From assembly GCF_006345805.1 (NCBI RefSeq), contig NC_043014.1:17050001-17114000 (forward strand): 64,000 nucleotides of DNA. Direction: 5' to 3'. A program made the position numbers and the translations under genes. Under the pieces are notes generated by a model that ran no database searches, was not told the DNA's origin, and was given only the letters and a program-made list of their open reading frames with translations. Source of the stretch: Octopus sinensis. Its lineage: Eukaryota. This document shows, in pieces, positions 38,889 through 63,460 of the stretch; within the stretch, counting starts at the first letter, position 1; the number at the start of each line of letters is the position of its first letter.

Positions 38889-38935
<47 letters not shown>

Positions 38936-39014: not shown

Positions 39015-39046
<32 letters not shown>

Positions 39047-39440: not shown

Positions 39441-39477
<37 letters not shown>

Positions 39478-39481
<4 letters not shown>

Positions 39482-40681: not shown

Positions 40682-42822
40682 TATATATATATATATATAT
40701 AACGGACGTTAAAGGATGATGATGATGATGATATATATATAATAAGAGAGAGAGAGAGATACATATTGTAGATGTGTATGTACATTTTGCCATTATATTA
40801 GGGTAAAAGAACTGAAAAAGTGGTGTTTTTGGTAAAAAACTGCAAAGTAGACACTTGCTTGTCTCTCTCTCACACACACTCTCTCTCTCTCTCTCCCTCT
40901 CTCTCACTCTCAGAAATCCTGTAAACTAGTTGGAACCCTACATTTGTTGTCCACTTATTTCTGCAACAGAAAATATAAAAACAGCTCATGATGTCCAGTA
41001 CTTGACCAATTCTCTCATCTCCTCTCTTACTTTTAATTGGTTAAACTTCATAATTAAGTTATTACTAAATTATTCTTTGAAGAAATAATAAAAAGTTGAT
41101 AATTTCTCATTAAATATTGTTAATTTTAACAAATGAAGCTAATCATTTATAATTAGGTGTGGAATAAATTAGTGAATTAATTGTTAATTATTACTGATGC
41201 TAATTGTTAATGGTTTATAACCAGTTGTTGAGTATAAGGAGGTTGGGGTAATGGATTGGGTGGGGGTAGCAGCAGTGGACATTAAGTGGGGGCTTCAGGA
41301 CAGTGGAGGGGGGCCTTAACATGCTTTGGAATCTCTAGTTTAGAAATAAGATATTTACAGGAGATGAGACCCACAATAAAATTGATGATGATGCTGGTAG
41401 TGGTTGTGGTGGTGATGGTTGCTGTCATCCTCATCATCATATCGGGGGGGGGGGGAGACACAAAGCACTAAAACAAGGAGAGGTCAAGCAGGGTGAAAGG
41501 AAATGCTAAATGTGTAGAGGAAGGTGGCAGTGGTATGGTAAAGGTCAATGGATGACCTTTAGTAGAGGGTGTGGTTCTGTTGAAGATGCTTGGCTGGGTG
41601 GGTAGGTGGGTGGGAAGTATTGGTTACCCCTAGGTTTATTGATCTGTTTCCACCCTCCCCCAGCTGATTCTGGGTGGAGCAGTCCTGTCTGTGTGTCTGT
41701 ACTCAATACAGTCATGTTGCCATGTGCACTGTTGTTGCAAGTGTTGTGTTAAATGTTAACGAGCTTTAAGTGCATCTCTTTCCTAAAATGACAACTAATT
41801 GATCCATTCCGACCAGCCAGCCTTCCCACAATGCAACTGGAGACAGTTTCTCATTTTTCACAGATTTTCCAATATTATTTCTCTGTTATTAGTTTCATGT
41901 GATTTATAGCCAATTCTTCAAGAATGGTAACAATGCACACACAAACACATACATTGGCACATACACACATACATATATACACACACACGTTTGATTATAA
42001 TGATAATAAAGTTGAATGTTAATCCATTTTCTACTCAGTTTATCCCATTCCAGAATATATGGGTGTTGGGGGCAGTGAATGGAGAAACTTGTCTAAGCCT
42101 TAATTCACTTCACAGTTTATTTCACTCAGATCACATCCTCTCTGATCTCTAGTGACTGTTTTATGATTTATGGACAGTGAAAATATATTTGTTGTAGCTG
42201 ACAAGACACTTTGCAACAGTTAAACGGCCCCTTAAGGGGAATTAACAAATATTATTGTCAAGAATATAACACATTAATGTCACTCATGTCAACTTTCTTT
42301 TAGATGGCTGTGGGCAGTGCCCTGCCTGCATTGTGTAAAATGACAAAAGGAAGAGAGGAAAAAAGATGATTTACCTTTGGCGAGGCACAGTGCCAATAGG
42401 TGGCACCACTGTAGTATATAGGGAATCCAGAATATTTTTTTCTGAAGATCCATTCTGGTCAATGTAGTAATCTGGAATAGAGAGAAAAATATTTTAATTA
42501 CAGCTGTCATATAATTTTATTATAAGGATTTGTAAGAATCAAGGCACATCAACTCATAGGATGTCAGGAATGGCTAGGTAACATAGAGCTCACATTGAAA
42601 TAAACAACACTGAAAACACATCAAGTGTTGATAGGATAACGTAGATATGCAAGTACCAAATCCAATTTAAGCCATAGATCCGACTCAGAGGAGGGCCTTT
42701 GGTGTGGTGTAGTATAGAAAGTAAATACTAGTGGCCTTTAAAATTTACGACAGCTGTTTTGGTAGAATTTTATTTATTTAATGCAGTCATAAAAGATTAC
42801 ATCATAATATATAACCAATCTT

Positions 42823-43010
42823 TGGGTGGCGAGCTGGCAGAATCGTTAGAGCATTGGAAAATATGTTTTGCGGCATTTAACTCCAGCGTTTTACGTCCTG
42901 CTTATGTCAGCTTTTCCTTTTCATTGTTCAGGGATCGATAAAATAGGGTATTAGTTAAGTCATGGAATCGATGGTATCGATTGTTCCCTTCCCCTCAAAA
43001 TCCCTGGCCA
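42823..43010 (+). mobile_element. Old SINE (family B: GGCGAGCTGGCAGAATCGTTAG)
   Basis: Diverged match to the copy at 43962. Confidence 0.65.
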
Positions 43011-43961
43011 TATGACTATGCATGTCAGTGACAAGTTCTCAGTTTCGAGCGACGACAATTTTGACAACATATTACAGACAATAAATGTTTAAGTGAAGTT
43101 AACGGTCTTTGTATGTCTATTTAGTTGAGTGTTTAATGTATGGTACCCTTTTTTTTATATATAACAACCCGCCCGAAAATACCTCTTTCTACGATAGCAA
43201 ACTTCTATTTTAAAATGAAATTTGGTAAGAAAATGGGAAAAGCAGTAGCGTGTACTTCGGATAAGTATCATAAAACCGCAACTTTGTAGCTCTCGTAATC
43301 TGGCAAGCCCATGATCTGACGAAGAGGGTGACGGGTTTAAATAGATATATCACTACCTCCCCCTGTCTCTTCCGCTTTTTGTAATTTGGCGCCATTTCGT
43401 GATTGAATCAGTCCACATCATGATGTAATAGTAGGTCTCAGTTCAAATATCTCTTCCGATGCTCCAAAGTTGGTGGATGAAGACATAACTCAATTGGTCT
43501 CTATCTCCGTGTTTTTGTCTTTTAAGTTAACCAACCGTCTTCTAGGTAATTCTTTTATGACAATTATTTAACCACTTCTTCATACTTAACACAATTTACT
43601 TGTCACCTTTGGCTCATTGAATTACGTCCTTCTTTTACAATGTCTTCCAAATTTTCTGTTTTAAGAGCGCAGATGCCCGTCTGTCTTTTTTTTAAATTAT
43701 AATTGCGCGTGCGTAACAACCCATACTGCTCCCTGAAAATGAATGGCTGAAACAAGTGAAATATCAGTCTTGTTTAAAGTTAAACAATTCTCATAGAAGA
43801 AAACACGATATTGACTAATTCACCGTCATACGTCTACTAAAAACTTTAACATACTTCCAAAATTGATCCACGCACCGACATAAAAAAAATTTCAATTTCA
43901 ACCAAATTTACAAAGTGTTGCATTACAAGAGGGACGATGTTTCAATAATGAAAGTAATGTT

Positions 43962-44717
43962 AAGGCGGCAAGCTGGCAGAATCGTTAGCACGCCTGGCGA
44001 AATGCTTACGTTCTGAGTTCAAATTCCGCCGAGGTCGATTTTACCTTCCATCCTTTCGGGGTCGATTAAATAAGTACCAGTTACGCACTGGGGTCGATGT
44101 AATCGACTTAATCCGTTTGTCCCCTCTATGTTTAGCCCCTTGTGGGCAGTAAAGAAATGGGTATTTCGTCTGTCTTTATGTTCCGAGTTTAAATTCCGCC
44201 GAGGTCGATTTTGCCTTCCATCCTTTCGGGGTCGATTAAATAAGTACCAGTTACGCACTGGGGTCGATATAATCGACTTAATCTGTTTGTCCCCTCTATG
44301 TTTAGCCCCTTGTGGGCAGTAAAGAAATAAACGTTAGCACGCCGGGCGAAATATTTAGCGGTATTTCGTCTGTCTTTACGTTCTGAGTTCAAATTCTGCC
44401 GAGGTCGACTTTGCCTTTCATCCTTTCGGGGTCGATAAATTAAGTACCAGTTACGTACTGGGGTCGATGTAATCGACTTAATCACTATGTTTAGCCCCTT
44501 GTGGGCAATAAAGAAATAAGAAACGTTAGCACGCCGGGTTAAATGCTTAGCGGTATTTCGTCTGTCTTGTTGTTCTAAGTTCAAATTCCGCCGAGGTCGA
44601 CTTTACCTTCCATCCTTTCGGGGTGGATAAATTAAGTACCAGTTGCGTTCTGGGGTCGATCTAATCGACCGGCTCCCTCCCCAAAAATTTCGAGCCTTGT
44701 GCCTAGTGTAAAAAAAG
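43962..44717 (+). mobile_element. Family B SINE tetramer within one 18-bp TSD
   Basis: Four GAGTTCAAATTCCGCCGAGGTCGA bodies; TSD AATAATGAAAGTAATGTT at 43944-43961 and 44718-44735. Confidence 0.88.
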
Positions 44718-45707
44718 AATAATGAAAGTAATGTTTCGCCGGATTAGTCACATCTGTACTATTATAATAAAGAAAGCAGCGATCCTTCGTTTTGAGAAAG
44801 CTGCTTAACAATCTATAATGGGCACTGTCATGCTATTAGCTGTCAGAAGTGAAAGTACGTCAACTGTGGTTATTGACTGAATCTTTCCATTCTGAGTTCA
44901 AATTCAGCTGTCGCTTACATGGGAGGTATTCTAACCCGTTGCCGCCCAGTTTAACACCAACGGACAATTGAGTGCCTTTAGCAGAACCAATTCCGTTTGT
45001 GATTATTCAGATTATGTCCCTCATTTGACGATACCTCTCTCTCCCTTTCTCCCACTCGACTGTTAAGGATTATGAGCATCGCCATTCCTCTTAAGTAAAC
45101 GATAGAAAAAGAAAAATTAGTTTTCTCGTAATTTCTTGGTCGAGTACCTTATTTAATGGTGTTTAAGATGCACTTAGCAACACATGTGGCGCCACGTAAA
45201 AATGCACTCGTTAAACTGTAAAGTGGCTGGTTGTTAGGAAGGGCACCCAGCCTGGAACCTGGTGTAGCTCCCTGGCCTTGCCAGCTCCTGTTGAACCAGC
45301 CAACCCATACCAGCGTGGAAAAATGATGTTATATGATGCCCCTCTCCCCCGCCCCGCAAAAAAAATTACTCCAGGTCTTAGATATAAAGTTGGGCCTCTT
45401 AGAAGCTAATTCCTGAATGTACCAAAAACTATTTTTGTGAATCTGTGCATCTTTTATACCGTCAAATATGGTATGTTTTTCTAAAACATGCTTGGAGTCT
45501 TTTATACTTATTAGAGTAATTTTGTTAAAACAATATAGGTACAGGCGTGGTTGTGTTAACAAGCTTGTTTTACAACTGTGTAGTTTGGGGTTCTGTCCCA
45601 CTTCAAGTGCTGAAGTTGACACAATCAACTTACCTACTCTGCCTGAACTTGACAGGCCTTGTGTCAAAAATTGAAACCATCATTATTATTGTTAGTCATT
45701 GACTATA

Positions 45708-45924
45708 AGGTGGCAAGCTGGCAGAATCGTTAGCATGCCGGGCAAAATGCTTAGCGATATTTCGTCTGCTGCTACGTTCTGAGTTCAAATTCTGCCAAGG
45801 TCAACTTTGCCTTTTATTCTTTCAGGGGTCGATGAAATAAGTACCAGTTACACACTGGGGTCAATATAATTGACTAGCCCCCTTCCCCCAAAATTTTCAA
45901 GGCCTTGCACCTAGTGTAAAAATA
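45708..45924 (+). mobile_element. Family B SINE monomer
   Basis: Complete head and body; TSD-like ATTATTGT(T)AGTCATTGA on both sides. Confidence 0.85.
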
Positions 45925-46089
45925 ATTATTGTAGTCATTGAGTGATAGGGCTTTTCCTTGCTCCTTAATTCTTCCCAATTTGATTTTCTGTGTTCCCTCG
46001 CATTAAATACATTAACACTTGCATTTAATTATGAAATTGTTTATTTGTTGTTTTTCCAGAGACTTCCAGCATTTTAACACAGTGTTACC

Positions 46090-46375
46090 ATGAACGTGAA
46101 AAAAGTTTATCCAGCTTCATATCGGAACCCGAAATGTTCTCGTTGTAAAAATCATGGCTCTGATGCCAAGATGAAGGGCCACAAAGGTTTCTGCCCCTAC
46201 ATCTTATGTGATTGCATAAAATGCATCTTGGTAGAGGAACGGCGCCGAATCAACAGACAACAGAATCTGCTCCGAAGATATCCTGACATCAACGTCAAGG
46301 ATATTTTCAAAGGTTGCATAAGATGCGAAAAATTCTGCCAACAGGTGACTGATTATTCTAACTGCGTCACTGCAG
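46090..46375 (+). CDS. dmrt: DM-domain (doublesex/mab-3-related) transcription factor, first coding exon
   Basis: RNPKCSRCKNHG..MKGHKGFCPYILCDCIKC..ERRR..Q..LRR has the exact C2-H2-C4 DM spacing; acceptor TTTTCCAG at 46059, ACCATG start, donor CAG|GTGAG at 46376 (phase 1). Confidence 0.9.
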
Positions 46376-46550
46376 GTGAGATTACATTTATTTATTTATT
46401 ACATAGAGTAACGCCTCAATATACGTGTTAACTTGTTCCTGGAGACTGCTTATAAATCGAAAACTCGTAAAGCAGAGCAGTAATTAACCATAGTAGTCAT
46501 GTAATTCGTTCCCAGAAAAATATTTTACCTGTAAAGTTTATAGTACTTGG

Positions 46551-46956
46551 GGATCTTTTCGGTTTGAACGGCAGTTTTTAACATAATTTCTAGGTAACTA
46601 AGAAATTTGAAACTTTGTATACTGGTAGAATGCGTTTATAAAACATCTTTTTCTCTTGGCTTTATTGAGAAAATTCTATAGTTTGTATGATATTTGTTGT
46701 TATTTTTCTTCAATTTCTGCTATTTCAACCAATCACCTACATGTATTGAGGTGAAAAACATTCTGTGCCGTATGAATATGTCCCTCATTTACGAAACAGA
46801 TTGGGTTTATTTACATTTCTGAAGAAAAAAAGATACCCTTCCCCCAACCCTGACCCGGATTGACATGCAATAGATCGATACTAGGGTCATAATTATGGGT
46901 GACAATTTCATATGACACCGCTAGGAAAAACACAGCCGTTCAAACCGAAAATATCC
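46551..46956 (+). mobile_element. Complete MITE, GG-termini, 8-bp TSD (Merlin-like)
   Basis: TIR GGATCTTTTCGGTTTGAACGGC; TSD GTACTTGG/GTACTTAG. Confidence 0.85.
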
Positions 46957-48479
46957 GTACTTAGAAATAAATAGTAATAAATCAACAGTAGAATGTAAAG
47001 AATATTCTATGTAAAGTAAAAATAACGTCAAGGTCCTTTATAATAAAAGATACTAATATTATAATGGTTTTCTGAATCACTTTCACTCACACTAGACTCG
47101 TGCACACCATCACTTGTATATGTGGTTGCTGATTCACAAGCACTCATAGACAGACTGTGGATTTCTTTTTGAAAACAAGTTTAGGGTTATTTGCTTAGAA
47201 GAAGCTTTCTTTCGCTCTCTAATAAATCTCTCGGTAACATACCGAAACATTTGTTGTGCTTCAAAATAAAACTCATAAACTTGGGGTTTTGTAAAACGGG
47301 TCCTTGTAATATGAGGTTATTACTGTATATGCCAGGTATGGCTGTGTGGTTAAGAAGCCGGATTTGAAACCACAGGATTTTGGGTTCACTTCCACCTTGC
47401 CCCACAGTGTCTTTTACTAGAATCCTGTGCCTTGTGAGTGAATTTGGTAAACAAGGTGTACATGCATGCATATGTATGTATATATCACTTGATTGACCAG
47501 GCTATCAGATGTTGTTACATATCGCTGGTCACAATACACTTTCTGTATTGTTTTAGCCTTCAAATAACACAACCAACATTCCCCACAGATCAAAAGGGGG
47601 TCTGGAGCAACGTGAAATGAAGAGTTTTGCTCAAGAACACAAGGCATTGCCCAGTCAGGGAATCAAACCTTCAATCAAGTGATTGTGAGTCTAACAGCCA
47701 AACCACTAGGCCACGTATATATGTACATTTGCATACATGTACACATATATCTGTGTATGTGTGTGTATATATATTGTATATGTGTGTACGTATATGTATA
47801 TGGGTATATATGTTATGTATATGTGTATATAAATGTGTATATATGTCTATATATGTGTGTATATAATGTGTATATCTGTATATGTATATATATGTATGTA
47901 TATGCATATCATCATATATCATGTCGTTACGTCCGTATGCTAGCATGGGTTGTTATATGATAGTCTAATTTGGCAATGTTTCTACATATGTCCTGATATG
48001 TATGTGCTTTTTACGTGATACAGGTATACGGTCAGATATGTGTATTTTATATAGGCGGTGCTGCATAGTATAGTGCTGTATGATTGTGGTTCATTATTAT
48101 TTCGCTTATGTCTTCAAATAGTGTGTGTGTATATATATGCGTATATATATGTGTATATATGTATGTGTATATATGTATATGTGTGTATATATGTATATAT
48201 ATATGTATATGTGTGTATATATATGTATGTATGTGTGTATATATGTGTATATGTATGTATGCGCCACACACACACACACACACATTATGAAAGAGCTACT
48301 GATAATTTCAAGCTTGGAAATACATGGCAACTTATACAAATCTTCCAATTTAATGTATCTTAAAGCATGAAATTATTCTTGGCTCTTTTGTAATTATGTA
48401 TATTAAATGATATTTATCTCACAGGGTGGGGTACTTTTATTGTTGACCCTATAAAGGAACTGTAAACTGTGTGTGTATA

Positions 48480-48697
48480 TGAAGGGGTTCTGAAAAGTTT
48501 CTGGTTTCGGGTGAAAGAAAATTCAGGAGGATCAGTTAATTACAATTTTATTCAACATATTCTCTTCACAGATTCAGACTCTTATTTGCAACGGTTCTTC
48601 AGTTTTTCTAAACCCTGTAAAAGAACTCTGAAGGCCTGGTTTCCAACCATGCCTTTCACGACACCCTTAAAGCCAGAAACTTTTCAGCACCCTTTCA
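48480..48697. mobile_element. Tc1/mariner-type MITE
   Basis: TIR TGAAGGGGTTCTGAAAAGTTTCTGG / CCAGAAACTTTTCAGCACCCTTTCA. Confidence 0.75.
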
Positions 48698-49569
48698 TGT
48701 GTGTGTGTAGAAATATAACTGCATGTGAACTGTTGGCGATTTTCCCTTATTTTTCCTTCTTTCTCTTTGGGCTTTCCTGTTTCCGACAAAGAACTATGCT
48801 CAAAATGTTAACAACTCTCTCCTTTCACCAAGCGTCAAATTAATATATTTCTTGTGCATGTCCTCACATCTACATTTTTCTTTTTTTTCTCTGTATTTTG
48901 TTTGTTTATTTGAATTTACACACACACACACAGAGTAAAATCCTTCGCCATATCCTGGTTCACCTATTGCAGTTTCTTATTAAAGCTTATGTCGATTCCT
49001 CTGTGGTGTTCTTTTGCAATTATAATAAAATAAATATATACAAATTATAAAAACAATAAAAACAAAACATACAGTACTGTTTCTATTTTGCGTATTTTCA
49101 CCTATCACAGGATGTTTTTGGAATGTAACACCCACAATAGTCGAGGGGTTACTGTAGATATTAAGATTCAAATTTCCAATGGCTGAAGATAAGCATTAAA
49201 TTTTGAAACTTTAAGTACCAAGGAATTAGAATCAAACTGTTTTGATCCCTCCATGGAACTCCCAATAAATTGATCGAGTGCCCTTCTTTTGTTTGTCCAC
49301 TCACTCGTATACTACAAACACACACACACACTTGTAGTGCTTGGAAAAAGGTGTGAGGGTTGCCAAGAGGACAGGATTAGGGAGTGGGGGGAGGGTAAGC
49401 ATAGTGCATGAAGGGGAAAGAAGAGGAAGGGAAGTGATGTAGAGATGTAGTTTGATTTGTTGTGGGAAGTTTTCTTGTTAAGTATAGGTGGAACGTTCAG
49501 CGCTTCTAGAACTGTTTCACTGACATGGGCGGGTTTTCTCAAGGACTTCATATTGCAAGACATCTTGGT

Positions 49570-51080
49570 CCATTGTCATTTGTTCCATGAGGCCCAACAT
49601 CCTGAGATTGGTCCCTACCACTTCATCCCATGTCTTCCTGGTTCTCCCTCTTCCATGGGTACCATCCACTTTCGCTGATCACCACTTCTTTATGCAGCTG
49701 TCCTCATTCATACGCATCACATGTCCAAACCAACGTAGTCTTCTCTCTTGCATGCTACATTTGATTCCTCTTCTGCCCAACTTTTCTCTCAATACATTTG
49801 CACTTTGTCATACATGTGCACTGATGTTGCACATCCAACAGTGCATACCACCTTCATTTCTCTCCAGTCTGTACATGTCTTCTGCAGTCAGAGCCCATGT
49901 CTCACTACCATGGAGTATATCCGTTCATACACAAGCATCATATAGTCTACCTTTCACTCTGAGAGAGTTCTTTCGTTGCCAACAGAGGTAATATTTCTCT
50001 GAACTTCCTCCACCCAATTCTAGAAACAATACTTTCAGAGCATCCCCCACCATTGCTAATTTGGTCACCTATATAACAGAAACTATCTCCAACCTCAAGA
50101 GAGCCTCCTGGGCATTTGAGAGAATCTACGTCCCCTGTGCTCTTAGTGCTTATTCTTCCTGCACATCTGCCACATACAAAGACTACTTTATCTGTTAATC
50201 TTGTTATTCCACTGTACCTCTTATGTGTCCATAGTTTACACTGGGTGCAGTGAATGGAATTTCTTTCAACGCCTTTCCTACATACTGAGCAGGGCCATTT
50301 ACCTGATGGAAAGAGTTTTTATCTTCTTTCTTACTAACAACTTCGGTCTTTGCTAGGTTAACTTTAAGACCCTTTGATTCCAGGTTTTGTTTCCATACCT
50401 GGAATTTCTTCTCCAATTCTGCTAAAGATTCTGCAATAAGAACAAAGTCATCAGCATATAACAGTTCCCACAGGTATCCAGTTTTGAATTCCTCTGTTAT
50501 GGCCTGGGGGACTATAATGACTAAGAGTGGGCTGAGAACTGAGCCTTAGGGAACCCCTACCTGTATGCTAAATTCATCACTGTATTCATGGCTGACTCTC
50601 ACCTTACTGACAGCACCACTGTATATGGCTTGTACAGTTCTAACCAGCCACTCCTCTACTCCTAACTTCCTTAGAGACCACCATATAACAGAGTGGGGAA
50701 CTCTGTCGAAGGCTAAGTACAATGGCTTACTTTTGGCCAAGACCTTTTCCTGTAGCTATCTCACTAGGAAGATAGCATCAGTGGTACTCTTTCCAGGTAC
50801 AAAACCAAACTGCATCTCACCTAGTTTAATTCTATTCCTAATTCAACTATAACCCTCTCAGTGACTTTCATGGCTTGGTCTAGCAATTTAATGCCTGTGT
50901 AGTTCATTTCTGTCTAAGGCATCACCTTTACCCTTGTAGCAGCTAACAATAATACCACTACACCAGTCATTGGGGGTGATGCCTTCCTGAATAATCTGAT
51001 TAACTTCACGGGTGACTAAGCTATATCCTTCACCACTGGAGATTTTAATCATCTTAGCAGTGATTCCTGATGTCTGACTC
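49570..51080 (-). mobile_element. Degenerate RTE-type LINE
   Basis: YKGKGDALDR, AFDRVPHS and YADD motifs; homologous to 60200-61800. Confidence 0.88.
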
Positions 51081-51342
51081 CCATATATTGCATTAATATT
51101 CTTGCACTTTCTGTTGCATTGTTGCAAAATATGCCGAATATGCTCCTTTGTCACTTCCATTATAGCTTTGGAAAAATAACTGTTTAAATCAAACTGCACT
51201 CTTCAAAACTTGCACTAAGAATAAGTAGAAGTTAAAATCACTACCTGCTTTTACAGTAAGTTGAAGCAAGTAGTTTATCCCATCCCTCTTCCGACTTTTA
51301 GTTCATGCAATTGAAAGATCCCACATTTATGGGACGACCCAG
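51081..51342 (-). mobile_element. Mariner 5' fragment
   Basis: MEVTKEHIRHIL transposase N-terminus; TIR-like CTGGGTCGTCCCATAA. Confidence 0.65.
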
Positions 51343-51531
51343 TGTGTGTGTGTGTGTGTGTGTGAGTGATGATTGCCTCATCTTGTCAGATGGTAGCTGC
51401 CTCCTATTCAGGCTTACTGTTTTGATGTACTTTCATCCATGCATGGATATGACTTCAAACATCACCATTGAACTTTAAAAAATACAAAATGGATCAAGAA
51501 AGAAAATTATTTGACATGCCATTAGATTTAA

Positions 51532-51730
51532 CCCTTTAGCATTTAAACCGGCCATATCCGGCCAAAAGTATTCTGCTTGTTTTATGTTCAAACTGGCCAG
51601 ATCTGGTCTCTTGCACCAACCCTACAATATCATTTAAAAATCTCATAGCTACAAGATAATGCCTGATTAGTTCAAAACAATGTGGATAAAAAAGGATTAA
51701 TTTTGGCAGAATAATGCAAACAATAAAGGG
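51532..51730. mobile_element. TTAA-flanked MITE (piggyBac-like)
   Basis: TTAA|CCCTTTA ... TAAAGGG|TTAA. Confidence 0.7.
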
Positions 51731-52183
51731 TTAAATGACAAAAAAGCTTGTGCAACACTTTTGCCATTCTTTTGGTTGCCAAAGTAGATTCCAGCACCAA
51801 CCATTGCAAAGTGACTGTTACTATTTTCACTACAAATTTTGTCTCAGAGTATCTTTCTCATTGGCTGCCTTCCTTTCCCATGGCTTTGTCAAAAATAGTC
51901 GGAGCTTCCTCTATCCCCAGGAAATCTATTTAACCCTGAGATGGGAACCAAATAGGTACCACCCATTCCTGGTCAGAATAGAATGGGAACAATGGTAATT
52001 AATGGGACGACTCCTTACTCTCCACAACCCCGGAACTCTCAAACTGGAGCCTCATCACCGACATCACAGGACATTATAAATATGAAGGCACGTGGCTTGG
52101 TGGTTAAGCATGTTGTAGTCACGGTCTTACTATCGTGGTTTCGCTTCCTGGACCGGAAGGTGTGAAGCTTTCATTTCTTTTGT

Positions 52184-52346
52184 AGGCGCAGGAGTGGCTG
52201 TGTGGTAAGTAGTTTGCTTACCAACCAAATGGTTCCGGGTTCAGTCCCACTGTGTGGCACCTTGAGCAAGTGTCTTCTACTGTAGCCTCGGGCCAACCAA
52301 AGTCTTATGAGTGGATTTGGTAGATGGAAACTGAAAGAAGCCCATC

Positions 52347-52382
<36 letters not shown>

Positions 52383-52590
52383 TGTGTGTATGTGTTTGTA
52401 CCCCCAACATCGCTTGACAACCGATGTTGGTGTGTTTACGTCCCCATAACTTAGCAGTTTGGCAAAAGAGACCAATAGAATAAGTACTAGGTTTACAAAG
52501 AATAAGTCCTGGGGTCGATTTGCTCAACTAAAGGCGGTGCTCCAGCATGGCCGCAGTCAAATGACTGAAGCAAGTAAAAGAATAAAAGAA
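52184..52590 (+). mobile_element. Full-length family A SINE with internal CA/TG microsatellite
   Basis: Head, body and (AAGAATAA) tail present. Confidence 0.85.
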
Positions 52591-53424
52591 AATAAAAGTA
52601 TATACAGTTTTCACATCCATGCAGTAGTTGCAAATAGGTGGCGCTGTCATGCAAGCAGTGTGGTTTCCGATCTTATCTGGAAACGTGTCTAGCTACAGAG
52701 GAATAGTACCAGGCTTGGAAGTGGGAGAGGGTTGGTGACAGGAAGTGTGTTTGCTTCTTTGTCTTGACATCACAAATTCCCTGTTCTATCCCCTGTTCTA
52801 TCATCAACTCCCTTGAGTCCCCTCCACTCTCTTCTCTTCATTAATGACTTTCTTCTCTTAATTAATCACAGCCAACAACAACACCTCTCACACAGCTAAC
52901 ACTTCCTTTCATTCTTCCCTAGTTAAACATTATCCATTCATAACTTTGGCACCACCACACACCAAAACCTGCTCTCATTCCATGAGCTGTAACCTCAAAA
53001 GGATCCAAATGGGTCTTTGAGAATCTGAACAAACAAAGGATTCTTTTGTCAGGATTCTCAGACGAAAGAATTAAGATTGGATAAAATATTGAGCAGTATT
53101 TAATCACTAAGTTCTTTGTTTTGAGTTGAAATCCTGCCATGGCCTGTATGGGTGGTAGACTTCATTCCTTGCTTGGTTTATCGCTGCTGCCATCACCTTG
53201 GTACCTTGGGTGCTCTTTATTGTAAGAATTCACTCTCTTGTAAGTCAGATTTTGGTCAAGTCTTTGGTTTGAGGATATCTTCTTACTCTCTCTCCCACTT
53301 TCTACCCCCTTCTCTCCTGTCACTTTCCCTCTCTCTATCCATTCTTCCCCTTTCTCCAGTCTTGGAGGCCCCTACAAAGGGATGTGGGCATTGCCTTCCC
53401 TGCTGACTAAAATATATATATATA

Positions 53425-53787
53425 CTAGCACTATTACCTGGCAACGCTGGGTCATAGTGCTAGTGCCTGCATATACAGCTGTGTGCGTGCACACATACAC
53501 TCGAGTACTGTCCAAATCTCCGACCAATCACATACAGCTATCTGGCATTCAATTGGTGTATCAAGTTTCGTTCATTTTGATTGGGTTTTGGATAGAAAAT
53601 TCACAAAAAAGTAATTTCTATTGATTTTTTTTAATGGTTTTCGGGGTGACTGGGGAAATGTAAAGATGTGCATGACCACCCTTGGACGGTTTTGAATGAC
53701 CATAGAAAGTGCGAGCCCTCTAACTGAAAAATTGTGGATTTGTATAAAGGACATGCACAGACAGACATTTTGCCATTTATATAGAGA
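53425..53787 (-). mobile_element. Non-autonomous Helitron, same family as 9419-9797
   Basis: Reverse-complement similarity along its length; TC start, hairpin, CTAG. Confidence 0.88.
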
Positions 53788-54629
53788 CTAGCAGAATTGC
53801 CCGGCGTTGCTCGGGGCTGAATTGCTTGAAAGTACTGTTAATGAATGCACTGAATTATGATGATTATTCAGGCAAATATTGATATAAGTTTACGATGGGA
53901 GATAAGGACTTAACGATCAAACGTGTGCCATTGCATTGTTTTGGGGGAACCAAATTTCTGATGAGCATTATAGGGGCACCAACTTTAAGTTTGAGAATGT
54001 GTGGTGGTAGTCCGGGGTGCTCAAAGGAATTGAGTATCTCTATTGGATAGTTGATGACGTCCTCTGGGTCAGGAGTTGTATCGATAGACTGATATACATA
54101 GACTTCCCCAGGAATGAGTTTTAGCATTTCATCATTAATATGGTGAACAGTTTATTCCTCGGGGCCAGTTAGCCTTTTTGCCAATCCAATCCATATTCTG
54201 ATAATTAGCTTGTAGATCTGGGAACACTGCATCTCTGAGATCAGAAGGCGTCTTAACAATGGTACAAATGGAATCGATGGCAATATTACCATTTTCATCC
54301 CCTGGTATTTTGCCTTCGCCAAGTGCAAGGAGGGTGTGAGGAAATGCTACTGATGTGATATTACGTCGCATATGAGCACGCATATTGGTGTGAAGTTTGA
54401 GAGTTACTTCCCTTTATTTAAAAAAATATGCATTCAAATGGAAAAAAATGATGGTAAATTATTTGTAAAATCGTAGACTCATTGTAGATGCACGCTAATA
54501 CCCAGAAGGGCTCGATATGAATCACGACTATAAGATACCCGGTTTTGGTTAAACTGCATCGCAAAATGTGGGAGTAGTTAGGAATCTAAATCGGAGTAGA
54601 CAGACACAACCTTTCTTTTCTATATAAAT
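53788..54629 (-). mobile_element. Internally deleted Helitron retaining a PIF1 helicase fragment
   Basis: GLPPHILKLKVGAPIMLIRNLVPPKQCNGTRL (53864-54383); CCCGAGCAACGCCGGG hairpin + CTAG; 5' end like 11550. Confidence 0.88.
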
Positions 54630-55318
54630 ATTTTCATCCTAAAAAACTTTGTATGGATTGAATGGTTACCTCTATCGAAATATATACACGCACATTATAC
54701 ATACATGTGTGTATAGATGAATATATAAATGCATTTAAATATCTATATACACTTTTGGGCGATCTTTCTGTTTCTTAGAGATAACTTTAGATCTTATTTT
54801 CGTCCTAAAATACTTTGTATGGAGTGAATGGTTACCTCTATGGAAATATATACACACACGTTATACATACATGTGTGCATAGATGAATATATAAATACAT
54901 TTATATATCTATATACACTTTTGGGCGATCTTTCTGCTACTTAGAGATAACTTTAGATCTTATTTTCGTCCTAAAGAACTTTGTGCGGAGTGAATGGTTA
55001 CGTCTATGGAAATATATACACACACATTATACATGCATCTGTGTATAGATAAATATATAAATACATTTAAATATCTATATACACTTTTGGGCGATCTTTC
55101 TGCTACTTGGATATACTTTAGATCTTATATTCGTCCTAAATAACTTTGTATGGAGTGAATGGTTACCTCTATGGAAATATATACACACACATTATACATA
55201 CATCTGTGTATAGATGTATATATAAATACATTTAAATATCTATATACACTTTTGGGCGATCTTTCTGCTACTTGGATATACTTTAGATCTTATATTCGTC
55301 CTAAAAACTTTGTATGAA
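54630..55318. repeat. 166-bp tandem repeat, about 4.2 copies
   Basis: AATGGTTAC recurs at 54661, 54827, 54993 and 55158. Confidence 0.92.
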
Positions 55319-55719
55319 TTGAAAAAGAAAATGAATTGAAATTTTTAAGAAAGGAATTTGTTTACATACATGTGTGAAATGACAAATGTTTGTGCAGTTG
55401 TCCGAAATGGAACCAGGGTAAATGTGTGGAACTGATGTATTATAATGAATAGTCCTTCTTGTTGTGAATATTAATTTGATTAATATGAACTGAAAATCAG
55501 TGGTGTAGCATATAAGACCATAGGTGATCTTCTAGCAAAAAGGATGACCAGTCTGACTGGCTCATCCCTGTCACACACTCACACACACACACACACACCC
55601 ACACACACACTCACACACACACACGTTAGCTTACAATTTTATTTATATATTTGCGTGTCTATGTGTGTAAAGAGGAAGTGGGAGTAATATGCAGAGTAAA
55701 GGCTTTGAAGTGAAAGAGT

Positions 55720-56326
55720 GAAAAGGTAAAATATTTAGTTTTTTCGAATTTTTTCTGAAATGGGGGTGAAATTGAAAGAAATTTTGTATGCCGTGACCGA
55801 ATGGAAGTACTTTGAAAAATCATAGGTAAACTCTAATTGAAGAAATTGTGTGAGGAGTAAATCGCTATGTATTTATTTGTTTCTGTTTGTTGTGTTTTTT
55901 TTTGAGTAGTGGTTTAAGGTACACTTGCAAAGAGAAAGAAGGAGAAATTATGGTGATAGCATGAGTGAAGCAGTTCATCCGTTTTATATAAATACTTTCA
56001 CTTTAATCGTTGCACACTTGCAAAGAGAAAGGAGGAGAAATTAGGGTGATAGCATGAGTGAAGCAGTTCGCTCCATTTTTGTGTGTGTGTGTGTGTGTGT
56101 GTGCTGTAGCCCACACTAAGAAAAGCACTTCACTTACACACCACAATGTGAGTTTTCTCGAAATTTTGCTTAATTGGAGTTGAAATTTTAAAAACTGTAC
56201 CTGGCACGACCCGATGCATTCTACTCTTAAAAATGCTAGGTAAATTGTAATTGAAGAAATCCTATATTGTAGATTTCTTTAAGAGACAAAGGGAGGCAGA
56301 TAGAATCTGCCTTTTATAATAAGAGA
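55720..56326 (-). mobile_element. Helitron-type 5' module (TCTCTTATTATAAAAGGCAG family)
   Basis: Reverse complement of 12283-12815. Confidence 0.8.
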
Positions 56327-56511
56327 TATAAAGAAAAAGAAAAAAATTAACCTGTTTATGAAAGAGTGGAAAAATGGATGTAAAATAAAGGAACCAAGCT
56401 CTCTAAAGGTGAGATTAATTTCCAGGGGAAATTATTAGTTGTTGATGCCTTTATTCCTTAGGTAAATTTCGTTGTAATTTTTTTTTTATTTTGTTCATCT
56501 TACCATTTCAG

Positions 56512-57113
56512 ATTCTTTCATGCCATCACCAAACGCCTACCCTGTTGTCCAACAGATCAACGGGAATCAATCGATGCCAAGCGTTAACCTGCAGATGCCT
56601 TCCACCCAGCCACCACCCAGTCATATCTATTCTTCTTCGCCTCAGCCAGACTTTGGCTACTACACCCCGAAGACACCCTTTGCCATTTTCAACTACCCTG
56701 CCGCCACTTCCAGCAAGATGTCTGACGTACACAGCAGCAATAGTAACATTAGTAGTAGTAGTAGTAGCAGCAGCAGTAATAGTAGTAGTAGTCCTACCAC
56801 TACTACTACCACCACCACCGCTACTACTACTTCTGCCAGTAACACTATGTATTATACTCCAGTGCAGGTGGCCACGGATGGCATGCCAAGTTCAGAGTTC
56901 AGTCCTTCGTATATTTACCCAGGTAATGGCTGCCAATTGGCACAACCACCTCAAAATCTTGGATTTGGTAATTACAACCGACCTTCGTTATTCTGGAACA
57001 CTTTTAATTATCCTGTTAATTCCTGGCTGCTGAAGTTCTGTGACAACTCCGTGCCTTCCAATGCGGACAATTTCTTGAAATCCTGCAAGTTTGCAGCTGA
57101 CACGACGAAATAA
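56512..57113 (+). CDS. dmrt: Probable terminal coding exon of the Dmrt gene (P/S/T/Y/Q-rich region)
   Basis: Strong polypyrimidine acceptor CATTTCAG at 56511; 200 open codons of non-TE sequence; phase 1 matches the donor at 46376 (G+AT=Asp). Confidence 0.72.
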
Positions 57114-57689
57114 GAAACATGTTTTAGAGATATGTGTGTGTGTGTGACGAACTACTGTTTAATTTCTTTCATTTGTTTATTATATCATTCATTACTCTAC
57201 AGAATGTGTGTGGGGGGTGTGCTCTCCTACTTTCTTTGGTATCCCCCACCCTCCCCCAACTAACATCATTGCTCAAATCCCTCCCACCCCCTTATCTTCC
57301 CTCCTCCCTAAATCTACCCTTTGACCTTCCCTGATCTTTACCCTGGTGTCGGGTAAAAGTTTTGGGAATCTGAAGAATTCTAACATTTGAACATGAAAAG
57401 AAGAATTACTTCAAAAGAAAACATTTTTTTATCATTGATTATCAAGTATTTCAACTTCAAAAATACGAAAATATTTTTTTAAAATTTTTTCGCCTTACAA
57501 ATTCTCTCCTCCACAGATAAACTTGTGAATGGTTTCCTCAACTCCATCCAAACTAGCTGTGAATAGGAACCATAATTTTGGGATAACAGTAAGCAGCGGT
57601 AGCTGTGTGTAACTGAAGAATTAATTCGTTAACCAAGTTTGGAGTTTAACTTGTCCTGTAGGAACAGATTGTATCTCTCTCTCTCTCTA

Positions 57690-58017
57690 GGCATGACTGT
57701 GTGATAAGAATCTTGCTTCCCAACCACATGGTTCCGGGTTCAGTCCCATTGCATGGCACCTTGGGCAAGTGTCTTCTATGGTAAGCCTCAGGCCAGAAAA
57801 GTCTCGGGTGGATTTGGTAGATGGAAACTGAAAGAAGCCTGTCATGTGTTTATGTGTGTCCACCACCACTTGACAACCGGTGTTGGTGTGTTTACGTTCC
57901 TGTAAACTGATAGAACAAGTATCAGGCTTTAAAAAGTACTGGGGTCAATGAGACTGACTAAAATTCCTCAAGACGGTGCCCCAGCATGGCCACAGTTTAA
58001 TGGCTGAAACAAGTAAC
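57690..58017 (+). mobile_element. Family A SINE
   Basis: Similarity to the copy at 52184. Confidence 0.8.
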
Positions 58018-58611
58018 AGTATATATTCTTCTCTGACACTGTTAGTTACTATTACGAGGGTTCCAGCCTGCTTATGGAATTAATATGCAAGTGGCTGAGT
58101 ACTCCACAGACATGTATCCCTAAAGCAGCTCTCAGGAAGAGTTAGTGTAACATACATGTACATCTCACACTTTTCACTTATGGCCCCTCTTGATTCTCTG
58201 GACCTAATCCTGATGTATGTTTTCTACACTGAACATATCAATGAGGGTTCCAGTTGATCCGATCAACGGAACAGCCTGCTTGTGAAATTAACATACAAGT
58301 GGCTGAGCACTCCACAGACACATGTACCCTTAACATAGTACTCGGGGAGATTCAGCATGACACAGAGTGTGACAAGGCTGACCCCTTTGAAATACAGGTA
58401 GAACAGAAACAGGAAGAAAGAGTGAGAGAAAGTTGTGCTGAAAGAGTACAGCAGGGTTTGCTCACGTCACCCTCTGCTGGAGCCTCATGGAGCTTTAGGT
58501 GTTTTCAAACACAACGCCCAGTTAGGGTGTTGCACACATGATATTCCAAGATTGCTGTTTCAATTCCAAGTCAAGCAGTGCCACATTGCGTTCATTAAAC
58601 AAAATATATAT

Positions 58612-58643
<32 letters not shown>

Positions 58644-58645
<2 letters not shown>

Positions 58646-61600
58646 CATCATCATCATCGTTTAACGTCCGTTTTCCGCGCTAGCACGGGTTGGACGGTTC
58701 GACCGGGGTCTGGGAAGCCAGGGGCTGCTCCAGGTTCCAGTCCGATCTGGCAGACTTTCTACGACTGGATGCCCTTCCTAACGCCAAACAAACTGCGAGT
58801 GTAGTGGGTGCTTTTTACGTGCCACCTGCACAGGTGCCAGGGGGGGGGTCCGGCATCGGTCACGATTGGTTGGAGCTTTTAACGTGCCAGCGGCATGGAA
58901 GCCAGCCAAGGCGGTGCTGGCAACGTTCGGATGGTCTTTTTTTTATGTGCCACCGGCACAGGGGCCAGTCGGGGTGGCGCTGGCATCGGCCACGTTCGGA
59001 TAGTGCTTTTTATGTGCCACCGGCACAGGCATCATAACTACTATTTCCATTGATATTTATATCGACGTTCATGTTCATGTTCATGTATTTGACTCAACAG
59101 GTCTCCTCAAGCACAGTGGGACGTTCTGGGAGCCGGGGTACTTTGAATAGGCACGGGCTATGCGGAACTGATGCAGGAAGCAGCCCGGGTCTTTGCAGTC
59201 ACAGCATATCTCCAGAGATCTCGGTCCTTCGCCATTGCCTCAGTGAGGCCCAACGCTCTGAGGTCATGCTTGACTACCTCAAGCCAGCCAAGGCGGCGCT
59301 GGCAACGTTCGGATGGACTTTTTTATGTGCCAGTCCGGGCGGGGCTGGCATTGGCCACGTTCGGATGGTGCTTTTTATGTGCCACCGGCACAGAAGCCAG
59401 TCGGGGCGGCGCTGGCATCGGCCACGTTTGGATAGTGCTTTTTATGTGCCACCGGCACAGGCAGTACTTTTTATGTGCCACCGGCACAGCCATCATAACT
59501 ACTATTTCCATTGATATTTATATCGACGTTCATGTTCATGTTCATGTACTTGACTCAACAGGTCTCCTCAAGCACAGCGGGACGTTCTGGGAGCCGGGGT
59601 ACTTTGAATGGGCAGGGGCTATGCGTTACTGATGCAGGAAGCAGCCCAGGTCTTTGCAGTCACAGCATATCTCCAGAGATCTCGGTCCTTCACCATTGCC
59701 TCAGTGAGGCCCAACGCTCTGAGGTCATGCTTGACTACCTCAAGCCAGCCAAGGCGGCGCTGGCAACGTTCGGATGGTCTTTTTTTATGTGCCACCGCAC
59801 AGGGGCCAGTCGGGGCGGCGCTGGCATCGGCCACGTTCGGATGGTGTTTTTTATGTGCCACCTGCACAGAATCAGTCGGGGCGGCGCTGGCATCGGCCAC
59901 GTTTGGATAGTGCTTTTTATGTTCCACCGGCACAAGCATCATAACTACTATTTCCATTGATATTTATTTCGACGTTTATGTTCATGTTCATGTACTTGAC
60001 TCAACAGGTCTCCTCAAGCACGGCCACGTTCGGATAGTGCTTTTTATGTGCCACCGGCACAGGCATCATAACTACTATTTCCATTGATATTTATATCGAC
60101 GTTCATGTTCATGTACTTGACTCAACAGGTCTCCTCAAGCACAGCGGGGTACTTTGAATGGACAGGGGCTATGCGGAACTTATACAGGAAGCAGCCCGGG
60201 TCTTTGCAGTCACAGCATATCTCCAGAGATCTCGGTCCTTCGCCATTGCCTCAGTGAGGCCCAACCCTCTGAGGTCATGCTTGACTACCTCATCCCATGT
60301 CTTCCTGGGTCTACCTCTCCCCCTGATACCTTCAACTGTTTGGGAGTGGCACTTCTTCACACATTTCTCTTCATCCATCTGCAGCACATGACCATACCAT
60401 CGCAAGCGTTGCTCTTGCACACCACATCTGATGCTTCTTATATCCAGCATTTCTCTCAGGGTGCTTACACTCTGTCGTGCGTGCACACTGACATTACACA
60501 TCCAGCGGATCATGCTAGCTTCATTTCTTTCAAGTCTACGCATGTCCTCTGCAGTCACAGCCGATGTTTCACTACCGTGAAGCATGGCAGTTCGCACACA
60601 TGCATCATACAATCTACCTTTCGCTCTGAGGGAGAGACCCTTTGTTGCCAGTAGGGGTAGGAGCTTTCTGAACTTTGCCCAGGCTATTCATATTCTAGTG
60701 GTGATACTCTCTCTGCATCCACCTCCACTACTAAGTTGGTCACCCAGGTAACGGAAACTATCAACTACTTCTAGTTTCTCTCCCTGGAGTGTGATGGAAT
60801 CTGTTTTCTGAGTGTCTGTGGTGTCTATTGTCCCTGTGCATCTGCCGCACATGAAAGCTATCTTATCTGTTAATTTCCCTTTAATGTTGCTGCACCTCTT
60901 GTGCATCCATAGCTTACATTGGGTGCATCTTATGGAGTTTCTACCTACACTTTTCCTACAGATCGAGCAGGGCCACCTGCCCGAGGGTGTGTGTGCTGAG
61001 TTCGCCTTTCTGCTTACTATAACTTTGGTCTTTGCTACATTTACTCTAAGGCCCTTTGATTCTAACCCTTGCTTCCACACCCGAAATTTCTTTTCTAGTT
61101 CCGGTAGTGATTCTGCTATGAGAGCCAGGTCATCAGCATAGAGGAGCTCCCAGGGGTATCCTGTTTTGAATTCCTCTGTTATTGCCTGGAGGACTATGAT
61201 GAATAAAAGGGGACTGAGGGCTGAGCCTTGGTGCACACCTACTTCTACCCGGAATTCTTCACTATATTCGTTGCCAATCCTAACCTTGCTGACAGCCTCT
61301 CTGTATAGAGCCTGTACAGCCCTTATTAGCGATTCGTCAATCTCCAGTTTCCGCATCGACCACCAGATAAGGGAACGGGGAACCCTGTCAAAGGCGTTCT
61401 CCAAGTCCATGTAGAGCTATGTAGAGGGGTTTATCTTTAGCTAGGTACTTCTGCAGTTGTCGGACCAGGAATATAGCATCAGTGGTGCTTCTACCCGGCA
61501 CAAAACCAAACTGCATTTCATCTAAGCAAATTCTCTCCCTAATGAGATGGGTTATGACCCTCTCTGTGACCTTCATCACCTGATCCAACAGTTTGATACC

Positions 61601-62218
61601 CCTGTAGTTATTTCTATCTAGAGCATCACCCTTACCCTTGTAGCAGTTGACTATGGTGCTGCTATGCCAGTCATTGAGTATGACTCCATTATGAACTACC
61701 TGGTTTACAATGCGGGTGACTAGGCCATAGCCCACATAGCCAGCTGTTTTAAGCATCTCAGCAGTGATTCCTGATGGGCCGGGGGCTTTACCTGGTTTCA
61801 TATCCTTAATTGCCTTATCTACAAGGGAGCTGTCTATTCGGGTAGCTGGTCCCTCTACTGGGTCAACATTTGGCAGGTTCTCCTCCTCCCATTCATTCTC
61901 CTCATTCAGCAATCTTTCATAATGGCTTTTCCAAGCCTCTTTCTTCTCACTAACAGTAAAAGCAAGTGCCCCATCATCCATGCGGACACATTTCTCTCCT
62001 GTAACATCACTATTTTCTCTGACACACTGTCTGGCAATCCGAAATACCTCAGTTCTTTGGTCCTCACGTCGCTGGACATTGGCAAACTTCTTCTTTTCTG
62101 CTACATCTTTGGCTATGTATACCTGCCACCCAGCCTCCCTTTTGGCTACCTGGTACAGTTCCCTGCTGCCCCCATCCCTCCAGGCTTTCCAGGCCCATCT
62201 CTTTGCACTAATGGCTTC
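58644..62218 (-). mobile_element. 5'-truncated RTE-type LINE with reiterated 3' region
   Basis: KGKGDALDRNNYRGIKL, QFGFVPGRSTTD, GVHQGSALSP, LLYADDL, FRYLG, MLHGSETS, GRGRPRKTW; (GAT)n tail at 58644-58658; few frameshifts. Confidence 0.93.
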
Positions 62219-62222
62219 ATAT

Positions 62223-62287
<65 letters not shown>

Positions 62288-62450
62288 ACACATATATTTG
62301 CATCTCAACAACATGGTTCCTGGTTCAGACTCACTATGTGGCACTTTGCGCAAACGCCTTCTACAATAGCCCCCCCTCCCCCCAGTTGATCAATGCTTTG
62401 CGAGTAGATTTAGTTGGTGGAAACTGAAAGTGTGTGTGTGTACAATCTTA

Positions 62451-63103: not shown

Positions 63104-63148
63104 TGTATGTGCCCATGCAGACAGACAGACAGACACACACACATACAC

Positions 63149-63410
63149 AAAGATACAAGCTATTAATAGTTTCTTGCCTTGGAGACACGAGTCTTGGTAA
63201 GTCTTTATTATACACCTTGTGCCTGCATGCAGCTTTTAGGCACTGCTAAGAGATACAAGGCGTGTTATAAAGACTTGCTCAGACCTGTGTCTCCAGAGCA
63301 AGAAACTATTACTAGCTCGTACCTTTATACTGTGTGCGTTAAATAATATTTATGTCTCTGGATGGAATATTTTATTTTGTTGCTGTTTACCATAGTGGAA
63401 CAGTTAAATA
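63149..63410. repeat. Old imperfect palindrome + tail, probably Penelope-like
   Basis: Arms at about 63149-63228 and 63250-63326, flanked by microsatellites. Confidence 0.5.
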
Positions 63411-63417
63411 CATATAC

Positions 63418-63460
<43 letters not shown>

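What the first reader, a model, noticed from the sequence alone, without database searches (positions are those of the whole stretch)
46090..57113. Divergent Dmrt gene with an altered DNA-recognition helix: candidate cephalopod sex-development regulator
Seen: all eight Zn ligands of a DM domain are correctly spaced. Joining donor 46376 to acceptor 56511 gives one open frame of about 295 aa with a P/S/T/Y-rich tail and no recognisable DMA domain. The helix reads LVEERRRINRQQNLLRR instead of the conserved LIAERQRVMAAQVALRR. By my manual alignment to human DMRT1, R72, R111 and R123 are kept but M115 and V119 both become Asn. Known: DM proteins control sexual differentiation across animals; these helix residues face the major groove in DMRT1; molluscs have a fast-evolving, testis-biased Dmrt1-like clade. 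Inference: this may be the cephalopod Dmrt1-like gene or a lineage-specific paralog with shifted DNA specificity. It also carries an extra C-x2-C-x3-C cluster (GCIRCEKFC) after the DM domain.
Basis: partly seen in the sequence, partly recalled or inferred. Interest (0 to 1): 0.75.

Follow-up and report, generated by a model that had tools for sequence, protein, structure and literature searches.

The report
Young duplicate of octopus Dmrt-1L gene
This is a real, spliced octopus gene already catalogued as a member of the mollusc Dmrt-1L family of likely testis regulators; it is likely a young copy of a gene on another chromosome, and its two unusual DNA-facing residues likely fine-tune binding rather than change the DNA word it reads.

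Summary
The window encodes a 295-aa DM protein identical to RefSeq XP_029647701.2 (Octopus sinensis), which a 2025 paper already lists as Dmrt-1L. Contigs from two public runs bridge the homologous intron and carry the window-type Asn55 and Asn59 codons; a non-coding first exon lies 2.5 kb upstream.

New here: the gene is a DNA-level duplicate (dS 0.115) of a gene on contig C24 whose helix keeps the Dmrt-1L-type Ser and Ile. So the asparagines replaced Ser and Ile, not Met and Val. All 7-8 DM-domain amino-acid differences fall on the C18 side, none on C24 (post hoc p about 0.04). A near-identical second copy 130 kb upstream is either an allele or a tandem duplicate. A published Z marker maps to C20, so neither locus is likely Z-linked.

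Shifted specificity is unproven: published SELEX shows divergent DM helices still select ACAyTGT, and double-Asn helices occur in nematode MAB-3-type domains. The extra cysteine cluster has no supported function. A testis-biased O. sinensis 'Dmrt1' is published but not mapped to a copy. Verdict: known gene, modest undescribed evolutionary twist.

The parts
43402..43545 (+). Non-coding exon 1 (start approximate), with short upstream ORFs; donor GT at 43546
   Evidence: Joined to 46060 it reproduces the N-terminal stretch of an O. vulgaris gene model in an alternative frame. Contig X1/1 carries 138 nt ahead of the laid part (letters not shown), and its mismatch count fits this join exactly, 17+1 = 18. 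Homologous block on C24.
46060..46375 (+). Exon 2: 30 nt leader, ATG at 46090, residues 1-95
46123..46263 (+). Pfam DM domain (residues 12-58) with all eight zinc ligands
46216..46278 (+). Predicted recognition helix, residues 43-63; R51, N55 (46252-54), N59 (46264-66), R63; Pro65 follows at 46282-84
   Evidence: AlphaFold2 model, pLDDT about 86-91 here; aligned to 4YJ0
46315..46338 (+). C76-x2-C79-x3-C83 cluster, kept in all six Octopus proteins; no family or confident fold
46376..56511 (+). Intron 2, GT-AG, 10,136 bp (7,339 in the upstream copy, 4,086 on C24)
   Evidence: homologous intron bridged by contigs in X1 and X3
56512..57113 (+). Exon 3 coding part: Pro/Ser/Thr/Tyr-rich tail to the stop; the 3' UTR end is not fixed
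42811..57236 (+). Segment with colinear homology to G000:C24:6556762-6567883 (upstream DNA, exons, parts of introns; about 0.05-0.07 substitutions per site in the long blocks): DNA-level duplication, not a retrocopy
36559..64000 (.). Start of a 71-kb gap-bounded contig (C18:17086559-17157468) that repeats C18:16958103-17026779 end to end, including a second gene copy (XP_036366646.1)

Best explanation
This is a spliced three-exon Octopus gene for a DM-domain protein of the mollusc Dmrt-1L group, likely a young duplicate of a gene on contig C24, that likely acts as a testis-biased transcription factor in male gonad development or spermatogenesis, downstream of the Z-based switch. Shown: exon structure, intact zinc ligands, conserved R72/R111/R123 equivalents, three copies, and the derived state of Asn55 and Asn59. 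Inferred: the zinc module and helix bind an ACAnTGT-type site as other DM proteins do; the low-complexity tail recruits cofactors; the two asparagines, and the Pro65 that ends the helix in all Octopus copies, alter affinity, flanking preference or oligomer state more than the core motif; the faster change of the DM domain after duplication reflects relaxed constraint or mild tuning, with the parent copy as back-up.
For: Identity to XP_029647701.2, listed as Dmrt-1L in Table S6 and placed among Dmrt-1L tips in a mollusc tree of PMC12530298. The C24 copy has Ser/Ile at these positions like scallop and abalone Dmrt-1L. Contigs bridge the intron in 2 of 4 runs laid (X1, X3; studies P1, P2), and all 4 runs show the AAC and AAT codons. 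dS to C24 0.115, whole-gene dN/dS 0.39, frame intact. Model matches DMRT1 best (Z 5.4, rmsd 3.0, 59 aligned). A male-biased O. sinensis 'Dmrt1' (136.43 vs 1.56 FPKM) is reported in PMC11202624. Dmrt1L is testis-enriched in scallop and oyster, and oyster RNAi shrinks male gonads (review passage). Seven Dsx DM domains, some with over half of the helix changed, all selected ACAyTGT; vertebrate DMRTs select similar sites despite helix differences.
Against: The published testis-biased gene id (EVM0011468) could not be mapped to any copy, and the runs have no tissue or sex label and are only guessed to be RNA. Their mismatch counts fit the letters shared by both C18 copies, not the window copy's private variants, and they read Ser39 where the window has Leu. 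In the SELEX study the V119-equivalent varied only among Thr, Met and Val; Asn was not tested. DMRT6, with a changed helix, selected no site. The Dmrt-1L label is manual, and its monophyly is recovered only in the mollusc-only tree; my own DM tree was unresolved. Foldseek found no significant match. Timing relative to the O. bimaculoides split is not fixed.
Confidence: 0.62

Rival explanations
1. Neofunctionalised duplicate: after the move to C18, selection reshaped the DNA-facing side of the helix (Ser to Asn, Ile to Asn), giving a new target motif or binding mode, convergent with the first DM domain of nematode MAB-3-type proteins.
For: 7 (8 with S55N) DM-region differences on the C18 side against 0 on C24, while outside the DM region the count is 6:6 (Fisher p 0.042-0.044; per site on the C18 side p 0.003-0.009). 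Both Asn codons differ from C24 by two bases. N55 and N59 are also in two O. vulgaris models. 7 of 220 DM domains have Asn at both positions; the 6 with a record are nematode proteins, two of them named MAB-3.
Against: Counts are small and the region was chosen after seeing the data. Branch dN/dS could be 0.7-2.1 depending on where 3 synonymous changes fall. The upstream copy has Ser55 again (AGC), so N55 is not fixed. The 220 domains were picked for likeness to the query. SELEX precedent is against motif change.
Confidence: 0.18
2. Decaying or weakly binding spare copy: the C18 gene is redundant, its helix is drifting, and it binds DNA poorly or interferes with the C24 protein.
For: Pairwise dN/dS in residues 10-64 is 0.69-0.79 against 0.37-0.38 in the tail. 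One O. vulgaris model skips the zinc module, which may mean a broken copy (inferred). Helix changes abolished site selection in DMRT6.
Against: Open frame, all zinc ligands and three key arginines kept; residues 65-95 unchanged on the C18 side; spliced contigs present, and in X18 the C18 type has the higher contig depth (22.5-33 vs about 9-11, a poor measure of expression, and runs were found with a C18 query).
Confidence: 0.12
3. The window's copy is only the second allele (uncollapsed haplotig) of the C18 gene 130 kb upstream. This concerns copy number and is compatible with the best explanation.
For: The copy lies on a 71-kb contig bounded by gaps that repeats the previous contig end to end (99.0% over 40.9 kb; 6-14 substitutions per kb in most blocks, 29 in one), and the next contig continues the tiling.
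Against: A third version of a 16.5-kb downstream segment exists, and each of the three has private substitutions (33/47/36; 84 after strict filtering, partly interleaved), more than two haplotypes explain easily. O. vulgaris also has two differing models with close accession numbers on one 73.6-Mb sequence.
Confidence: 0.5
4. The duplicate is a primary sex-determining gene of the DMY/DM-W/iDMY kind.
For: Dmrt duplicates have repeatedly taken that role (recalled; iDMY seen in a search listing). Fast DM-domain change.
Against: The Z marker SPAG9/JIP (two short matches, 32 and 31.4 bits against a cut-off of 30) maps to C20, matching the published chr20 = Z; the copies are on C18 and C24. That paper reports Z hits for FOXL2 and ZNK226l but none for DMRT1L. 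ZZ/Z0 is reported across coleoids, much older than this duplicate.
Confidence: 0.03

Closest known systems
Mollusc Dmrt-1L (scallop, oyster, abalone; O. sinensis XP_029647701.2, XP_036366646.1, XP_036368911.1; O. bimaculoides XP_014782618.1)
   Same: This protein is one of the listed members. Single divergent DM domain, no annotated DMA. The C24 parent shares Ser and Ile at the M115/V119 positions with scallop and abalone.
   Different: Window copy has Asn at both positions. All Octopus copies have Pro two residues after the R123 equivalent, where scallop and abalone continue with a Gln/Glu-rich stretch, and they add a cysteine-rich stretch. Copy number is 2-3, against one listed for O. bimaculoides.
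Human DMRT1 (PDB 4YJ0) and Drosophila Dsx (1LPV)
   Same: DM zinc module, R72/R111/R123 equivalents, best structural matches.
   Different: Not orthologous according to PMC12530298; no Pfam Dmrt1 or DSX_dimer match; helix face differs at the 112, 115, 116, 117 and 119 positions.
Cricket and honeybee Dsx with highly substituted helices (bioRxiv 10.1101/2024.09.25.614005)
   Same: Fast-evolving recognition helix with conserved arginines.
   Different: There the changes cluster away from DNA and the motif is unchanged; here two changes lie at positions in register with R111 and R123, and binding is untested.
First DM domain of nematode MAB-3-type proteins (Trichuris, Trichinella, Romanomermis and others)
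   Same: Asn at both positions; in two cases also Arg at 123 and Pro two residues later.
   Different: Most are two-DM proteins; the likeness is best read as convergence, and the set was chosen for similarity to the query.
Sex-determining Dmrt duplicates (DMY, DM-W recalled; iDMY from a search listing)
   Same: Young duplicate of a testis-type Dmrt gene on another chromosome.
   Different: No Z linkage, full-length, no evidence of sex-limited presence.

Membership tests
DMRT (DM-domain) transcription factors | DM domain above the Pfam cut-off | tested here: met
   PF00751 67.6 bits, cut-off 27
DMRT (DM-domain) transcription factors | Eight zinc ligands (CCHC and HCCC sites) | tested here: met
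   C16, C19, H22, H31, C35, C40, C42, C45
DMRT (DM-domain) transcription factors | DM fold with long recognition helix | tested here: met
   Model helix 43-63; top VIA match 4YJ0, Z 5.4, rmsd 3.0, 59 aligned (a modest Z); Foldseek gave nothing significant
DMRT (DM-domain) transcription factors | Binds an ACAnTGT-type DNA site | not testable with these tools
   Needs SELEX or EMSA
Mollusc Dmrt-1L | Placement in the Dmrt-1L clade | tested here: inconclusive
   Own tree of 84 DM domains lacked named mollusc Dmrt-1L rows and was unresolved. Published: manual annotation of this protein as Dmrt-1L and tip among Dmrt-1L (support values not readable)
Mollusc Dmrt-1L | Helix with Ser at M115 and Ile at V119 (my reading of three Dmrt-1L rows in the PMC6113668 supplement) | tested here: inconclusive
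   Met by the C24 parent and O. bimaculoides; replaced by Asn/Asn in the window copy
Mollusc Dmrt-1L | No annotated DMA domain | tested here: met
   No Pfam DMA hit; own DMA profile not above shuffles; none listed for five other Dmrt-1L species checked
Mollusc Dmrt-1L | Testis-biased expression | not testable with these tools
   Runs carry no tissue label. Published male-biased 'Dmrt1' not mapped to a copy
Dmrt2, Dmrt3, Dmrt4/5 | Canonical helix ERQRVMAAQVALRR | tested here: not met
   The canonical helix is in a separate gene at C24:19932402; PMC12530298 lists one O. sinensis Dmrt-2
Vertebrate Dmrt1 / arthropod dsx | Dmrt1 (PF12374) or DSX dimerisation (PF08828) domain | tested here: not met
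   Only PF00751 on the full protein
Sex-chromosome-linked Dmrt duplicates | Located on the sex chromosome | tested here: not met
   Z marker on C20, copies on C18 and C24; rests on one marker
Sex-chromosome-linked Dmrt duplicates | Sex-specific presence or dosage | not testable with these tools
   No sexed raw reads available

The most novel reading that the evidence does not exclude
In the Octopus vulgaris/sinensis lineage a transposed copy of Dmrt-1L has become the main testis Dmrt and, under positive selection, rebuilt its DNA-facing helix into a short double-asparagine form convergent with nematode MAB-3, reading a new DNA motif: a natural case of a sex regulator changing its specificity within a few tens of millions of years.
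Probability: 0.15. Interest if true: 0.65.

Novelty: already known. Interest (0 to 1): 0.33.

Why it matters
Cephalopods have an ancient ZZ/Z0 system with unknown effectors, and Octopus appears to keep only Dmrt2 and Dmrt-1L. The parent and daughter DM domains differ at 8-9 residues, two of them in register with the base-contacting arginines, so they make a clean paired test of whether DM specificity can evolve. In practice, anyone using 'Dmrt1' in O. sinensis must tell apart two or three near-identical copies.

Tried and rejected
DMA/CUE remnant: residues 60-88 resemble by eye a CUE-like stretch of scallop Dmrt-1L, but a profile from 7 DMA-like sequences (4 distinct) scored it -1.0 bits, reached by 321 of 2000 shuffles; Pfam gave nothing; a Foldseek row for the Vps9 CUE domain had E = 10; a PDB sequence search gave only a chance hit. 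Not supported. Cysteine cluster as a metal site: pLDDT 42-58 for residues 71-95, no evidence either way. Single-sequence fold failed (pLDDT 49). Three homolog searches found only Octopus proteins or the query itself, so no squid, cuttlefish or bivalve orthologs were in hand. Atlas search gave generic DM clusters. Own tree unresolved, careful search unfinished. ACAnTGT sites near the promoter: 2 against 1.6 expected. The bacterial promoter scan is not applicable. Murphy et al. 2015 and Zarkower and Murphy 2021 are not held. Earlier scan notes: none on this gene. No complex prediction was run.
Full report
1. Observation. The DM exon, splice sites and frame are as described. ATG is at 46090, the donor GT at 46376-77, the acceptor AG at 56510-11, and the join gives 295 aa. 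Pfam DM scores 67.6 bits against a cut-off of 27, with no DMA. Against 4YJ0 the offset is 60 residues, so R12, R51 and R63 equal R72, R111 and R123, and N55 and N59 sit at M115 and V119. [quoted passage not shown]

2. Splicing and gene structure. I laid four public runs on the paralogous locus on C24 at 85% likeness. One contig in X1 lies on 2697-3012 and 7102-7340 of L027, one in X3 on 2827-3012 and 7102-7308: both bridge the homologous intron (2 of 4 runs, two studies). For X18 only the exon 3 piece is listed; X2 runs into the intron and looks like DNA. All four runs read AAC at codon 55 and AAT at codon 59, the C18 type. They read Ser39, unlike the window, and their mismatch counts fit the letters shared by both C18 copies rather than the window's private ones. 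So the C18-type gene is spliced at this junction; the window's exact variant was not seen. The runs are only guessed to be RNA and have no tissue label. A non-coding exon ends at 43545 and joins 46060: this join reproduces the N-terminal stretch of an O. vulgaris model and accounts for the mismatch count of the X1 contig.

3. Copies. A genome-wide DM search scored 122 of 122 candidates and gave five matches: the window, a copy 130 kb upstream on C18, a copy at C24:6.56 Mb, a canonical DM gene at C24:19.93 Mb and a partial match with a stop beside it. The three related copies all have exon 3. [quoted passage not shown] O. vulgaris has both types; one O. bimaculoides protein was found, of the C24 type in the DM domain. 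Whether the duplication came before or after the split is open: in the published tip order the O. bimaculoides protein lies between the C18 and C24 proteins. That C24 is the parent is inferred from its ancestral helix and from deletions in the C18 tail.

4. Allele or tandem copy. The window's copy lies on a 71-kb contig between two gaps that repeats the preceding contig end to end (99.0% over 40.9 kb), the pattern of a haplotig. Against that, three versions of a downstream segment each carry private substitutions, and O. vulgaris has two differing models close together in accession number. I put this at even odds.

5. The helix. Scallop and abalone Dmrt-1L have Ser at M115 and Ile at V119 (supplementary alignment of PMC6113668), as do the C24 copy and O. 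bimaculoides (ISRQQILLQR). The asparagines are therefore recent, TCC to AAC and ATC to AAT; the upstream copy has AGC (Ser) at 55. Between residues 9 and 64, 7 differences (8 with S55N) separate C18 from both C24 and O. bimaculoides, and none is private to C24; outside that region the count is 6 to 6, leaving out the low-complexity stretch 170-206, gapped columns and columns where the two C18 copies differ. Fisher p is 0.042-0.044, per-site p 0.003-0.009. The region was chosen after looking, and one change (Q62R) matches the canonical residue, so its direction is unsure. Branch dN/dS could be 0.7 to 2.1, so relaxation and positive selection cannot be told apart. Among 220 DM domains from 148 of the best 150 hits (the Octopus hits left out), 37 have Asn at 115, 9 at 119 and 7 at both; the six double-Asn proteins with a record are from nematodes, two named MAB-3. 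Of 137 domains with both arginines, 3 have a proline by the position of Pro65, two of them exactly there. Pro65 is in all Octopus copies and ends the predicted helix.

6. How it likely works. DMRT1 inserts antiparallel helices into the major groove and binds as dimer, trimer or tetramer (PMC9713387 passages). A cricket study counts three base-contacting helix positions, two constant arginines and one position that varies among Thr, Met and Val; by spacing I map them to R111, R123 and V119. All seven DM domains tested there selected ACAyTGT, and vertebrate DMRTs select similar sites, except DMRT6, which selected none (PMC1931443 passages). That M115 faces the groove is recalled from Murphy et al. 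2015, which I could not read. With both arginines and the zinc module intact, the most likely outcome is the usual core motif with changed affinity or stoichiometry. A testis role is inferred from the family (PMC10588774 passages) and from a male-biased O. sinensis 'Dmrt1', 136.43 against 1.56 FPKM in immature gonads (PMC11202624 Table 4; three testes, two ovaries kept), whose id I could not map to a copy (one supplementary file was held).

7. Sex linkage. The published Z of O. sinensis is chr20 and the shared Z block holds SPAG9. The JIP leucine-zipper family maps to C20 here, so C18 and C24 are likely autosomes. This rests on one marker.

8. Extra cysteines. They are kept in all six Octopus proteins, but no family, fold or profile supports a domain.

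9. Known or new. PMC12530298 lists this protein and both other copies as Dmrt-1L, manually annotated (Table S6), and shows only Dmrt-2 and Dmrt-1L for Octopus. Searches returned no paper on the duplication history or the helix; subscription journals are not covered, and supplementary files 13 and 14 of that paper were not searched. What I saw of each paper: PMC12530298 passages, supplement rows and one whole supplementary tree (tip labels only); PMC11202624 passages and the tables section; PMC10925132, PMC9713387, PMC1931443, PMC10588774 and PMC12186615 passages; PMC6113668 passages and part of the supplement; bioRxiv 10.1101/2024.09.25.614005 passages and two whole sections; PMC12154352 search listing only.

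10. Verdict. A real, known Dmrt-1L gene. The undescribed part is a young duplicate with a burst of DM-domain change, which makes a neat paired binding test. Interest 0.33.

Noticed in passing
G000 genome-wide; L001 = C24:19930902-19934042: Only one canonical DM gene was found besides the Dmrt-1L copies; Dmrt3 and Dmrt4/5 appear to be missing in Octopus, in line with the published tip list.
   Followed up: partly
G000:C24:19931459-19931548 (L005): A second, partial DM match with an in-frame TGA about 0.9 kb from the canonical DM exon; a duplicated exon fragment or an alternative exon.
   Followed up: no
window 36459-36558 and C18:17086459-17253966: Four 100-N gaps bound short contigs that repeat parts of C18:16.96-17.08 Mb two or three times; gene counts here (also zinc-finger genes) may be inflated.
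   Followed up: partly
window 43391-43490: CGCCATTT motif (YY1-like, recalled) just ahead of exon 1 and four upstream ATGs in the leader; the region is conserved on C24, possible translational control.
   Followed up: no
window 2737-7796: Helitron with Rep and PIF1 helicase frames broken by stops or shifts.
   Followed up: partly
window 53864-54413: Helitron helicase fragment inside intron 2, in a stretch absent from the upstream copy.
   Followed up: partly
window 20107-20604, 27783-29513, 32632-33747: C2H2 zinc-finger genes, the longest frame 576 aa with about 19 fingers.
   Followed up: partly
window 60121-62389: LINE with reverse transcriptase and a PHD-like finger on the minus strand; further LINE fragments at 49947-51202.
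   Followed up: partly
P0010 (O. vulgaris CAI9737502.1): Gene model reads the 5' leader as protein and skips the zinc module; a mis-annotation or a broken second copy.
   Followed up: partly
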